From: Podarcis tiliguerta
Taxonomy: Eukaryota
Length of the DNA: 64,000 bases
Strand: one strand, 5' to 3'
Assembly: GCA_965153285.1 (NCBI GenBank)
Contig: OZ229116.1
Below, piece after piece: positions 48,301 through 51,300 of the stretch. A program made the position numbers. How positions within the stretch are numbered: position 1 is the stretch's first letter; each line of letters opens with the position of its first letter.

Positions 48301-51300
48301 GAAGCGGCGTACATGGCTTGGGTTCTAGCGGAAGAGTTAGACAGACCTTCCATGTTCAGAGGCAGTGATGCAGGAGGGCTTCATTGCACAAGGAGAACCA
48401 CCAGGGTTTGCATCAATAGGAAGGCTGAAACATTTCTGAAAGCGCCAACATTTTCTTTTCTAACTGGATAGAGAGAAAACAAAAGATGAGTTAATTTAAT
48501 TAGCAGGTTGTTGTTTTTTAAATCTGCTTAAAGTTAATGCAGCTTCATCCATACACAACATCCAGCCACGCTGGAACACTCTCTTAATCCTGCAAAGGTG
48601 TCTGCTTTTCGCTCAGTTAAACCATCAAGGAAGGTCCACGCATGAGGGCTGCTGCAACAGTGATGCACAGATGTTCCAAGCAGGGCTCAACTGAGGCCTG
48701 CTACCACCTCCCTCCCTCCCCATCTATCCACACACATGCAGGCAGCAATCATGGGACATTATGTATGTTTCTCTCATCTCCCCACCCAGCCATCCCTCTA
48801 TGCACCTTGCAAACATTTACTTGCAAGCACAAGTAACTTGCACTGAGCAGAGAGGAAGGCTTGATGATGAAATTGGAGCCTCTCACACAGTTGCTACTTC
48901 CCAGTGCACTGCAAGCAGGCTAGCTGTGCAGATTAGCCATGCAAGTGGACCGTGCTCCTATTTTTCTTCTGTTTGGATTTTAATTAGCACCAGCATTGCT
49001 GTAATACACAGATCTAGTTTATTTCCGTGTTTTGGATGTTGTATGTAATGGGTTTTTTTTAAAAAAAAATGTTTGCCTGTATATTACCATTTATTAAAAT
49101 AATCACATCGTTTTATTTTAAAGTCGACATAAATCATGCTGCCATTAAACGTTCCATGTCTTCAGCTAATTTTGTGTGAGAGAGAAATAAAATAAAGCAC
49201 ACTGTGAGATGTCGGCTTTTGGTTTGATTCCGAGTACTGGAAAATTAACGTGCTGTTTCCATAGACCGTGGCCTAATAATTAAAGCGAGGCCAAAACATC
49301 CATTTCCACTTGGCAATATCATCAGACATGTTTTTTGAACCTGTGGAAAATATATTGCATCACTAATATTGCACTCTGCTTTGGTCAGTTTTCTTCCTTA
49401 TTTATACAGTGGTACCTCGGGTTACAGATGCTTCAGGTTACAGACACTTCAGGTTACAGACTCTGCTAACCCAGAAATAGTACCTCGGGTTAAGAACTTT
49501 GCTTCAGGATGAGAACAGAAATAGCACGGTGGCGGCACAGCGGCAGCAGGAGGCCCCATTAGCTAAAGTGGTACCTCAGGTTAAGAACAGTTTCAGGTTA
49601 AGAACGGACCTCCAGAATGAATTAAGTTCTTAACCCAAGGTACCACTGTACGGTGCAAGCTGCTGGCATCTGTCTGTCTCAAGATAGACAATGGAGTGCC
49701 CCTCCAGGGTGAAATCAAACCACTTCAATAACAGCACCAAAGTGACCTCCCTAGGGTGCAAGCCTGGCCAGTGTGTATAGAGGTCCTGGGCTGCCAGACA
49801 AAAAGACCCCCCTCTTGGCCTCCTCCTCCTAGATGGGCTACCTTCCCAGGTTGAGGAGCCCCATCTGCTCCTTGCTTCCCTCTACAGCACATGCAGAAAC
49901 TGCCTTCTTGACCGTTGGACCCACTACTGGTCTCAATTGCTCAACCCCCCAGAGCCTGTCTTCACATGCAGGGAAAGTCCCTAACTCGCTAAAGGTTTGA
50001 GATCCATAAGCTCCCCTCACCTGGTTTAGCCGGCCAGTCAAAGCTGGGGTGTGGCCACTGTCATATACTGACATCTACTAGGAGCCACAGGTGAGAGCTG
50101 AGTGCAGGATGGGGATCAAAGTTGGACAAACTACCCCAGTAGGAGAATGACATGCCCCCCACAAGAGGTGCTACTTCTCACTTGATTGTGGGCAGCAGGG
50201 CTTTGCAGGGGACTCTTGGGTAGGGATGGAAGAGAGATTTGATTTTTGTTTGTTTGTTTGCATTTTAATCAGAAACTACCTATTCACACTTCTCAAACCA
50301 ATATGCAACCCGAAACACAGCTTTCCTTTGAAATCTGCACATCTCCAATCAAATATGATGTGCAAAAGTGCGTATATTGGGTGTAAGTGTGCATAAAAGA
50401 GCACATGTTAAATGAAAATAACATGTACTGGGGGAAATTGCTTGCAAAAGTACTGTACATTAGTTAAAGCTACATATGAAAAAAAATGTGTTTATTAGGA
50501 TAAATTTGCACTTCAAATGCTGATGAATTTTCAATGAGGAGTTCACCAGAATCAAGTAGCTGAAAAAAACGTGGAGAACTCAATTTAAGCCTGGAAAAAT
50601 GGGAAACTTTGAGAACCAAAATGGACAGATTTGTCCATCAGTACTCTTGTGGAAGCTTGGAAAAACAGCAAGAGGCACAAGCCTAATTTGATCCACTCCC
50701 CTCCATCCCTGGGTGCCTTAGCTGAAGTTGAGTATCAGTTGGAGAAAGCTGGGAAAGAAGACTGAGAAAGAATGATTCACATATATATGACTCAAAGCAC
50801 TAAGCAGCCCAAAACATTTCTTTTTATGATTACAGGCCTTGCGCAAATCTCATGTGAGGAGCATACAGGCCACCCATTGAAACATCACCACATGGATGAC
50901 AAATTCCCCCCTCCCAAAAAACCCCCAAAATGTTCTCAAGAGATTCCATACCAGGAGTGACTGCAAATGTACAACTGGTTAGGCTTACTTATCAGATTTT
51001 GCATGGTAAGAGAAAATCCAGATTAAACAAAGTACAGGTGGGCATTTTGATGATCTTGTGTGGACACACTCAGTGGCGTAGCGTGGGTTGTCAGCACCCG
51101 GGGCAAGGCAAGTAATTTGTGCCCCCTAACCTGTGGATTTGCGCCCCCTAACCCTAACCCCCAGATGTTGCGCCCAGTGCGGCTGGCCCCCCCTGCACCC
51201 CCCACGCTACGCCACTGGATGCTCCCACTGGTGCAACCACCCTACCCCAACCTCGCTACTATCACCCTGTCCCAACGCTGTCCAAATATGGAGCAGTGAC

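What the first reader, a model, noticed from the sequence alone, without database searches (positions are those of the whole stretch)
51071..51217. Three transposon ends in one unit: a complete 147-bp MITE forms the left arm of the Pack element
Seen: 51071-51217 is itself a full mini-element (left TIR to CCCACGCTACGCCACTG) but is followed by GATGCTCC, not the TSD. The TSD follows only the second, diverged right end (52199-52274). Inference: the transposase skipped the near right end and used a distant one, mobilising the host DNA between them, like a composite transposon or alternative-end transposition. This points to a specific capture mechanism. The inner right end also contains (CCCTAA)2CCC at 51146-51160, which the outer end lacks.
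Basis: partly seen in the sequence, partly recalled or inferred. Interest (0 to 1): 0.7.

Follow-up and report, generated by a model that had tools for sequence, protein, structure and literature searches.

The report
Three-ended lizard transposon carrying PTGDR start
A small cut-and-paste transposon in a lizard genome sits fused to the promoter and first 66 codons of a prostaglandin-receptor gene and to a broken second transposon end, preserving the joints that show how such elements pick up host genes.

Summary
The 17-bp terminal repeat CAGTGGCGTAGCGTGGG occurs exactly three times (51071+, 51201-, 52258-). 51071-51217 is a complete left-plus-right 147-bp unit followed by GATGCTCC. The perfect 8-bp duplication GACACACT brackets only 51071-52274.

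The cargo is the 5' flank and first ~66 codons of a prostaglandin D2 receptor gene, closest to the lacertid lizards Podarcis and Zootoca. It carries an 11-bp frameshifting tandem duplication.

New here:
- The outer right end is only the last ~78 bp of a second copy.
- It is fused directly to the coding sequence at a CCT overlap, with no left end and no duplication of its own.
- It differs from the inner right end at 8 of 58 positions plus a 12-bp gap.

I therefore read the cargo-to-outer-end joint as a break-repair joint. That could be a maize-type composite insertion or ectopic gap repair. Simple end-skipping remains possible.

The parental locus could not be inspected, because no eukaryotic DNA collection was available. 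Compound multi-ended hAT elements are published in plants, so this is a new member of a known kind. Interest is moderate.

The parts
51063..51070 (.). Left copy of the 8-bp target-site duplication GACACACT
   Evidence: Read directly. Direct repeat D19 51061-51070 / 52273-52282.
51071..51217 (+). Inner complete 147-bp mini-element (left end plus right end). No duplication of its own.
   Evidence: Perfect 17-bp inverted ends at 51071-51087 and 51201-51217. Followed by GATGCTCC, not GACACACT. Folds on its terminal stem with z = -4.8, which follows from the repeat itself.
51117..51175 (+). Three direct copies of the subterminal motif TTGYGCCC (starts 51117, 51139, 51168). A possible transposase-binding repeat (inference).
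   Evidence: Regex scan. Two further copies lie in the outer end at 52208 and 52225.
51146..51160 (+). (CCCTAA)2CCC, a telomere-like run inside the inner right half
   Evidence: It lies in the 12 columns gapped in the outer end. Single CCCTAA units occur in the same motif at 51124, and a similar unit occurs in the relic near 34770.
51218..51685 (+). First part of the cargo; origin not verified. It begins with GATGCTCC, the presumed old target site of the donor copy. It contains an ATG-to-stop frame at 51370-51540.
   Evidence: No other copy in the window. The translation of 51370-51537 matches the unnamed 58-aa database protein P0030 at 51 of 58 positions. GC 0.50, CpG o/e 0.44 for 51218-51580.
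51686..51982 (+). PTGDR 5' flank (promoter / 5' UTR, CpG island)
   Evidence: tblastn of the Zootoca vivipara model P0007, whose N-terminal extension translates the upstream DNA, aligns to 51686-52204 with E 7e-61 and to 51726-51953 in a second frame. CpG o/e 0.93 for 51581-52196.
51983..52197 (+). PTGDR exon-1 fragment: start codon to about codon 66, ending after the residues FYLL
   Evidence: 25 hits, all carrying PF00001, best from Podarcis muralis. P0006 residues 1-53 are 96% identical. The top 4 solved-structure hits are prostaglandin D2 receptor. The frames show the homology ending at 52197, whereas the reference proteins continue with VSALAATD.
52135..52156 (+). 11-bp tandem duplication (GCGGCGCGCCC twice) that shifts the receptor frame
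   Evidence: Sequence. Arms spaced 11 apart (I9/I10). The frame changes. tblastn splits into frames +2 and +1.
52194..52198 (+). Joint between the receptor coding sequence and the outer right half. CCT (52194-52196) is shared by both sources.
   Evidence: Column map of alignment A1. Codon positions.
52197..52274 (+). Outer right end: the 5'-truncated right half (~78 bp) of a second, diverged copy, ending in a perfect terminal repeat at 52258-52274
   Evidence: No left-end remnant anywhere in 51218-52196.
52275..52282 (.). Right copy of the 8-bp target-site duplication GACACACT
   Evidence: D19.

Best explanation
51071-52274 is a 1,204-bp compound, non-autonomous hAT-type transposon in a lacertid-lizard genome. 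It has three sections:
- a complete 147-bp mini-element;
- 979 bp of cargo, which from 51686 onward at least is the 5' flank and first ~66 codons of the prostaglandin D2 receptor gene;
- only the right ~78 bp of a second, diverged copy.
All of this lies inside one 8-bp target-site duplication.

Most likely the cargo is simply the old genomic flank of a copy that sat about 765 bp upstream of PTGDR. The broken end was then joined, at a 3-bp CCT overlap, to a broken second copy.

Two routes give this result.
(a) Reversed-ends alternative transposition. It uses the left end of the PTGDR-proximal copy and the right end of a second copy further upstream, inserts them into unreplicated DNA, and is followed by re-replication, fork abortion and end joining. 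This is the 'composite insertion' of maize Ac/fAc.
(b) Repair of a break in, or excision of, a simple copy already resident at this site. The PTGDR-linked copy serves as an ectopic template, and synthesis switches back into the resident copy.

Shown: the anatomy, the duplication, the three ends, the identity of the cargo from 51686, the truncation point, and the divergence of the two right ends.
Inferred: the donor copy at the parental gene, the synthesis run-out, and the joining.
For: (1) The cargo starts at the exact last base of a perfect terminal repeat (51217/51218). That is expected if it was that element's flank.

(2) The cargo ends inside a coding exon. Homology to lizard PTGDR stops after FYLL at 52197, while all 25 reference proteins continue the transmembrane helix.

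(3) The cargo abuts an internal position of the element (about position 58 of 147). There is no left end, no duplication there, and a CCT overlap. This is the signature of an end-joined break, not of an insertion boundary.

(4) The two right ends come from different copies. There are 8 mismatches in 58 aligned columns plus a 12-bp gap, against 0/17 in the terminal repeat and 0/8 in the duplication. The cargo's CpG island is undecayed (o/e 0.93 against 0.10 and 0.23 in the flanks), and the coding part is 96% identical to Podarcis PTGDR over 53 residues. The difference therefore predates the fusion.

(5) The architecture is the one described for maize composite insertions: a complete element, then the flank beyond its far end, joined at microhomology to a piece ending in the other terminus, all inside an 8-bp duplication. 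The maize joints had 4- and 9-bp microhomology (passages of PMC4270019).

(6) The 11-bp tandem duplication in the cargo fits slippage-prone repair synthesis. This is weak evidence, and it could have arisen later.
Against: The parental PTGDR locus and all other genomic copies stayed out of reach, so the donor copy is inferred and not seen.

Only 51686-52197 is verified as PTGDR-derived. 51218-51685 is not. Its only relative is the unnamed protein P0030 for 51370-51537.

Maize composite insertions carry 4.8-18.9 kb per re-replicated arm. Here the arms would be about 1.1 kb and 78 bp.

For the ectopic-repair variant, 86% identity over less than 150 bp is poor homology for strand invasion. The longest identical run between the two right ends is 23 bp.

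The CCT overlap is judged against the inner copy, not against the true source of the outer end, and 3 bp is weak.

A later internal deletion in an ordinary two-element macrotransposon would leave the same joint.
Confidence: 0.5

Rival explanations
1. End-skipping or macrotransposition, the reader's model, which equals the neighbouring-insertion model for Pack-TYPE elements. Two copies lay in direct orientation at the PTGDR locus, one at -765 and one downstream. The transposase paired the left end of the first with the right end of the second and moved everything between them. The left half of the second copy was lost by aberrant excision or deletion, before or after the move.
For: One left and one right end in correct relative orientation bracket the unit inside a perfect 8-bp duplication. 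The model is in print for CACTA, PIF, Mariner and hAT Pack elements, with inner ends 'deleted or mutated' and fused AB/BB elements that keep inner ends (PMC6379663 passages; PMC8903248 section 9). Ac/Ds macrotransposons moving up to 100 kb are cited in PMC3260210. Once the second copy's left end is deleted, its right end can only pair with the distant left end.
Against: The second copy would have to sit downstream of codon 66 of a conserved single-exon stretch, or in the intron with a later internal deletion. A deletion must end inside that copy yet spare its last 78 bp. The published model relies on local hopping, which yields near-identical neighbours. Here the two right ends differ at 8 of 58 positions plus 12 bp. 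The inner right end is intact (17/17), so nothing forces it to be skipped.
Confidence: 0.25
2. Filler-DNA patchwork without a donor copy at PTGDR. The transposase cut only at the right end of a resident mini-element, and the break was mended by error-prone synthesis. That synthesis copied one or several unlinked pieces (PTGDR 5' region, and perhaps 51218-51685 from elsewhere) and then re-copied the right end from a template.
For: A cut exactly at the terminal repeat explains the precise 51217/51218 boundary without a donor copy. 51218-51685 is not verified as PTGDR flank, and base composition changes near 51580 (GC 0.50 to 0.73). Filler DNA in Ds elements, occasionally genic, is described in PMC3260210.
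Against: Re-copying the right end from the sister chromatid or homologue should give a near-identical second end. The observed ends differ by 14% plus a 12-bp gap. A GC step of this kind is what a CpG-island promoter border looks like.
Confidence: 0.1
3. Not a real compound element: a chance juxtaposition or an assembly artefact.
For: Only one copy could be examined. The window has an N run, but it is far away at 2836-3040.
Against: Three exact 17-mers against 0.06 expected. An 8/8 duplication at the exact outer borders. A 60-nt alignment with E about 1e-18. No N within 48 kb of the element.
Confidence: 0.02

Closest known systems
Maize Ac/fAc composite insertions from reversed-ends transposition and re-replication (Zhang, Zuo & Peterson 2014, eLife, PMC4270019; passages read)
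   Same: hAT superfamily. A complete element followed by the flank beyond its far end, joined at a short microhomology to a piece ending in the other terminus. The whole is bracketed by an 8-bp duplication.
   Different: The maize arms are 4.8-18.9 kb; here they are about 1.1 kb and 78 bp. The maize events were watched from a known progenitor with twin sectors; here the progenitor is unseen. The host is a lizard and the element a 147-bp mini-element.
Maize compound element Ds-l4-483 (Du et al. 2011, BMC Genomics, PMC3260210; passages read)
   Same: A regular complete element with perfect ends, then foreign DNA including a transcribed sequence, then a truncated duplicate copy ending in a perfect terminal repeat and the duplication.
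   Different: In Ds-l4-483 the inner element is itself flanked by the duplication (three copies of it), and the truncated copy is described as a duplicate of the first. Here the inner right end is followed by other DNA, and the second right end is 14% diverged.
Pack-TYPE transposons and the neighbouring-insertion capture model (Catoni et al. 2018, PMC6379663, passages; Gisby & Catoni 2022, PMC8903248, section 9 and passages)
   Same: A non-autonomous element with terminal repeats and a duplication that carries a host gene fragment. Fused AB/BB elements keep inner ends. Pack-hAT elements are reported in maize.
   Different: All described cases are plants. The model expects both inner ends deleted or mutated and near-identical neighbours. 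Here one inner end is intact and the two right ends are diverged. Their S5 Fig with the hAT examples was not seen.
Ac/Ds macrotransposons (Huang & Dooner 2008, Plant Cell; seen only as a reference-list entry and as described in PMC3260210; paper not held)
   Same: The outer ends of two linked hAT elements in direct orientation move the DNA between them.
   Different: Macrotransposons keep both elements whole. Here the second is a 78-bp stump fused to a coding exon.

Membership tests
hAT superfamily (non-autonomous member) | 8-bp target-site duplication | tested here: met
   GACACACT at 51063-51070 and 52275-52282. The 8-nt duplication as the hAT mark is stated in PMC8903248.
hAT superfamily (non-autonomous member) | Short terminal inverted repeats beginning 5'-YARNG (consensus recalled, not from a call) | tested here: met
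   17-bp perfect repeat beginning CAGTG.
hAT superfamily (non-autonomous member) | Cognate autonomous element encoding a hAT transposase with matching ends | not testable with these tools
   It would lie elsewhere in the genome. In the window, 18 of the 23 frames of 130 aa or more were scanned against Pfam and 0 of 18 had a family. The 5 left out were four that overlap the GC-rich cargo and one across the N run.
hAT superfamily (non-autonomous member) | Weak target preference nTnnnnAn (recalled) | tested here: not met
   GACACACT has A at position 2 and C at position 7, and its reverse complement does not fit either. This is a weak, non-defining feature.
MITE (miniature inverted-repeat element), for the inner unit 51071-51217 | Short, non-coding, with terminal inverted repeats | tested here: met
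   147 bp with perfect 17-bp ends.
MITE (miniature inverted-repeat element), for the inner unit 51071-51217 | Flanked by its own target-site duplication | tested here: not met
   GACACACT on the left, GATGCTCC on the right. The second GATGCTCC in the window (5457) is at chance level: 2 found, 1.9 expected.
MITE (miniature inverted-repeat element), for the inner unit 51071-51217 | Many dispersed copies of the same short unit | not testable with these tools
   No eukaryotic DNA collection was available. In the window there is only one decayed relative, at 34191-34234 and about 34767-34798.
Pack-TYPE (gene-fragment-carrying) transposon | Terminal repeats plus duplication at the outer borders, with a host gene fragment between them and no transposase | tested here: met
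   Outer ends and duplication. PTGDR 5' flank and about 66 codons. All 1,204 bp are accounted for by ends and cargo. The frame 51130-51537 has no Pfam family.
Pack-TYPE (gene-fragment-carrying) transposon | Mobilised as a unit (further copies with other duplications) | not testable with these tools
   Searches for translated copies found nothing: 0 of 34 candidates; 0 of 16 candidates. One search gave one unnamed 58-aa relative of 51370-51537, with no context available.
Composite insertion by reversed-ends transposition and re-replication | Complete element plus distal flank, joined internally by NHEJ/MMEJ to a segment ending in the other terminus, inside an 8-bp duplication | tested here: met
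   compared with the passages.
Composite insertion by reversed-ends transposition and re-replication | Progenitor locus with two elements whose facing ends are in reversed orientation | not testable with these tools

The most novel reading that the evidence does not exclude
This is a vertebrate snapshot of a Pack-type element at birth. A young, still CpG-rich copy of a receptor gene's promoter and first exon was picked up as the flank of a hAT mini-element through alternative transposition with re-replication, or through template-switch repair. Both diagnostic joints are still intact. That would show that the maize composite-insertion pathway also shuffles promoters and exons in reptile germlines, and that a hAT family was recently active in lacertid lizards.
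Probability: 0.3. Interest if true: 0.65.

Novelty: new member of a known kind. Interest (0 to 1): 0.45.

Why it matters
How cut-and-paste transposons acquire host gene fragments is still unsettled. [quoted passage not shown] A 2026 review says an 'alternative, yet undiscovered mechanism' may exist (PMC13317346, section 4).

Mature Pack elements have lost the joints that would tell how capture happened. This unit keeps both. One is the exact element-to-flank boundary. The other is a mid-element break joint fused to a coding exon.

All worked examples I could read are from plants. An abstract from 2008 called transduplication of protein-coding genes unknown in animals before its own C. elegans case (PMC2572040, listing only). 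No held paper contains both 'transduplication' and 'lizard' (0 papers).

With the full genome in hand, three simple look-ups would decide among three named mechanisms. The practical weight is modest. This is one copy, the captured receptor piece is frameshifted, and the concept is already known from maize.

Tried and rejected
- **Other copies via proteins.** The translation of 51983-52273, searched at near lengths, had 34 candidates and none at E <= 0.01. The translation of 51130-51537, which spans the inner right end and the cargo, had 16 candidates and none at E <= 0.1. The full HMMER scan of that frame gave 3 hits at E <= 0.001. One is relevant (P0030, 58 aa, 51/58 identical). Two are long repetitive proteins that I take as spurious.
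- **Literature search for the terminal repeat.** Searching the string and its reverse complement found 2 papers, on Arabidopsis WRR4A and on Biomphalaria. Only the 12-mer reverse complement occurs in them, which I take as chance or primer matches. The 17-mer was in none.
- **Squamate or lacertid transposon literature.** Searches listed nothing on this family.
- **Rfam.** The whole window gave only a tRNA match at 7518-7575 and nothing in the element.
- **Pfam.** 0 of 18 long frames had a family.
- **Second GATGCTCC as a hint of an old duplication.** Matches were at chance level.
- **Telomere origin of (CCCTAA)2CCC.** Rejected. The run sits inside a repeated subterminal motif that already contains CCCTAACC, so one 6-bp slip produces it.
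- **This window as the parental PTGDR locus.** Rejected. No receptor homology beyond 52251 or anywhere else in the window, using 5 of the 25 reference proteins as tblastn queries. The unit is also bracketed by a duplication.
- **Human contig.** Rejected. The nearest proteins are lacertid, and the window holds a young hAT insertion.
- **Collections not used.** Huang & Dooner 2008 is not held.
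Full report
**Host and scope**

The window is 64,000 bases with one N run at 2836-3040. I located the run and left it alone.

The contig is not human. The translated gene fragment in the element is closest to lacertid-lizard proteins. These are three Podarcis muralis models (79-93% identity; P0006 residues 1-53 at 96%) and Zootoca vivipara at 76%. Of the 25 hits, 24 are squamates and 1 is a turtle. A tRNA-derived SINE-like stretch at about 34268-34620 looks to me like the squamate 'Sauria' SINE. 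That name is recalled and was not tested.

The receptor piece lies in one uninterrupted stretch and was searched as such.

**Checking the observation**

- *Terminal repeat.* CAGTGGCGTAGCGTGGG occurs exactly at 51071-51087 (+), 51201-51217 (-) and 52258-52274 (-). A decayed match with 3 mismatches lies at 34191. That is 4 matches against 0.06 expected, and 0 of 100 shuffles reached 4.
- *Inner unit.* 51071-51217 is a left end and a right end 113 bp apart. The next bases are GATGCTCC.
- *Duplication.* GACACACT lies at 51063-51070 and at 52275-52282, directly outside the outer ends (D19).
- *Superfamily.* An 8-bp duplication and a repeat starting CAGTG are the marks of the hAT superfamily. The 8-nt rule is in PMC8903248. 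The YARNG rule is recalled.
- *Telomere-like run.* (CCCTAA)2CCC is at 51146-51160 and is unique in the window.

**The two right ends**

A gapped alignment pairs inner 51128-51217 with outer 52197-52274.
- Terminal repeat: 17/17 identical.
- Other aligned columns: 50 of 58 identical.
- One 12-column gap removes the CCCTAA run from the outer end.
- Several of the 8 differences are transversions.

The element carries a direct subterminal motif, TTGYGCCC, three times in the inner unit and twice in the outer end. The motif in full (TTGYGCCCCCTAACC) already contains CCCTAACC, so a 6-bp slip makes the telomere-like run. I do not read it as telomere-derived.

No remnant of a second left end exists between 51218 and 52196 (blastn, word size 7, E <= 1).

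**The cargo**

The start codon is at 51983. The translation up to 52141 matches lizard prostaglandin D2 receptor. All 25 hits carry PF00001. The four best solved-structure hits are prostaglandin D2 receptor, E 5e-7 to 2e-6.

An 11-bp unit, GCGGCGCGCCC, is present twice in tandem at 52135-52156. Downstream of it the receptor continues in another frame (RGWGRPRASAFYLL). Homology stops after FYLL at 52186-52197. The reference proteins go on with VSALAATD, while the window goes on with element sequence.

Upstream, the Zootoca model P0007 carries an N-terminal extension that is a read-through of the DNA upstream of the gene. It aligns to 51686-52204 (E 7e-61) and, in a second frame, to 51726-51953. 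So 51686-52197 is collinear with a lacertid PTGDR 5' region.

51218-51685 could not be verified. Its only relative is an unnamed 58-aa database protein, P0030, which matches the ATG-to-stop frame 51370-51540 at 51 of 58 positions.

No other part of the receptor is in the window. This was tested with 5 of the 25 reference proteins as tblastn queries, and all hits fell within 51620-52251. This is therefore not the parental locus.

**Age**

CpG observed/expected values:

| Region | CpG o/e |
|---|---|
| 51581-52196 (cargo CpG island) | 0.93 |
| Outer end | 0.80 |
| Inner unit | 0.53 |
| The two 1-kb flanks | 0.10 and 0.23 |

With perfect repeats and a perfect duplication, the unit looks young. 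A 14% difference plus an indel between the two right ends is then unlikely to have built up after the fusion. The two ends most likely came from two different copies of the family. This is an inference. A Fisher-type contrast of 8/58 against 0/25 is only borderline.

**What the joints say**

The left joint (51217/51218) is exactly at the end of a perfect terminal repeat. That is what an element-to-flank boundary looks like.

The right joint (52194-52198) fuses a coding exon, mid-helix, to position ~58 of a 147-bp element. Three shared bases (CCT) lie at the joint, and there is no duplication. That is what an end-joined break looks like.

That picture needs a second copy downstream of codon 66 and a separate deletion that removed its left half but spared its last 78 bp.

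Two other routes make such a joint as part of the process.

1. *The maize composite insertion.* The facing ends of two linked hAT elements are cut and inserted into unreplicated DNA. The elements and their flanks are re-replicated, the forks abort, and the ends are joined. The product is a complete element plus its flank, joined at 4- or 9-bp microhomology to a segment ending in the other terminus, inside an 8-bp duplication (PMC4270019, passages). Applied here, the second copy would lie upstream of the first, not in the gene.
2. *Gap or break repair of a simple resident copy.* The PTGDR-linked copy serves as an ectopic template, synthesis reads through into its flank, and then switches back. 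That break repair creates Ds derivatives and filler DNA is stated in PMC6379663 and PMC3260210. The classic abortive-gap-repair papers are recalled only.

**Weaknesses**

- The donor copy is inferred.
- 468 bp of the cargo is unverified.
- Maize composite insertions are an order of magnitude larger.
- 86% identity is poor for homologous invasion.
- The 3-bp overlap is judged against the inner copy rather than against the real source of the outer end.
- A later internal deletion in a normal macrotransposon would look the same.
It excludes only the patchwork model.

The separating tests are the orthologous site in relatives (empty, or a simple copy), the position of any second copy at the parental locus, and the spectrum of other genomic copies.

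**Comparison with the known**

Compound, multi-ended hAT elements are in print.
- Maize Ds-l4-483 is a complete element, then foreign transcribed DNA, then a truncated duplicate ending in a perfect repeat and the duplication (PMC3260210). There, however, the inner element also has the duplication.
- Pack-TYPE elements of the hAT, PIF, Mariner and CACTA superfamilies are proposed to grow by fusing neighbours, with the inner ends deleted or mutated (PMC8903248 section 9; PMC6379663). Their supplementary figure with the hAT cases was not seen.

All of these are plants. I found no report of such capture in lizards. No held paper contains both 'transduplication' and 'lizard' (0 papers). The 12 best of 1,135 papers do not use the word. 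The terminal-repeat string is in no relevant paper. These searches cover only the held open-access library.

**Verdict**

This is a new member, in a vertebrate, of a known kind of compound or Pack-type hAT element. Its value is that both formation joints are preserved. Interest is 0.45.

Noticed in passing
window 34191-34234 and about 34767-34798: A decayed relative of the same transposon family. The left end has 3 mismatches in the 17-mer, two of them CpG transitions. After an inserted SINE-like block, a second stretch resembles element positions 23-58. It looks like an older, longer family member and lacks a recognisable right end.
   Followed up: partly
window about 34268-34620: A tRNA-derived SINE-like sequence sits inside that relic, apparently flanked by a short repeat (ATGTGCACCTCAA appears on both sides, with one mismatch). 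The resemblance to the squamate 'Sauria' SINE is recalled and was not tested.
   Followed up: no
window 51370-51540: An ATG-to-stop frame of 56 codons inside the unverified part of the cargo is 51/58 identical to an unnamed 58-aa protein in the public set (P0030). This segment therefore exists in at least one other record. Whether that record is the parental locus, an orthologue or another copy is unknown.
   Followed up: partly
window 51983-52411: The captured start codon opens a frame that runs through the frameshifted receptor piece, the outer transposon end and into the flank, about 142 codons by the stop-to-stop frame 51647-52411. With its own CpG-island promoter it could give a chimeric transcript. 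This was not tested.
   Followed up: no
window 7509-7604 (-) and 46933-47001 (-): tRNA-like sequences. Rfam finds a tRNA at 7518-7575 (43 bits). ARAGORN finds an odd 96-nt call there and a tRNA-Ile(GAT) at 46933-47001 that Rfam did not report at gathering score. These may be SINE heads or tRNA genes.
   Followed up: no
window 2836-3040: A run of 205 N (assembly gap or masked stretch). Left untouched.
   Followed up: no
window 51060-51087 / 51201-51228: The inverted-repeat match of the inner unit extends into its flanks (28 nt, 82% complementary). The left flank and the reverse complement of the bases after the inner right end share 6 of 11 positions. This is probably chance.
   Followed up: no
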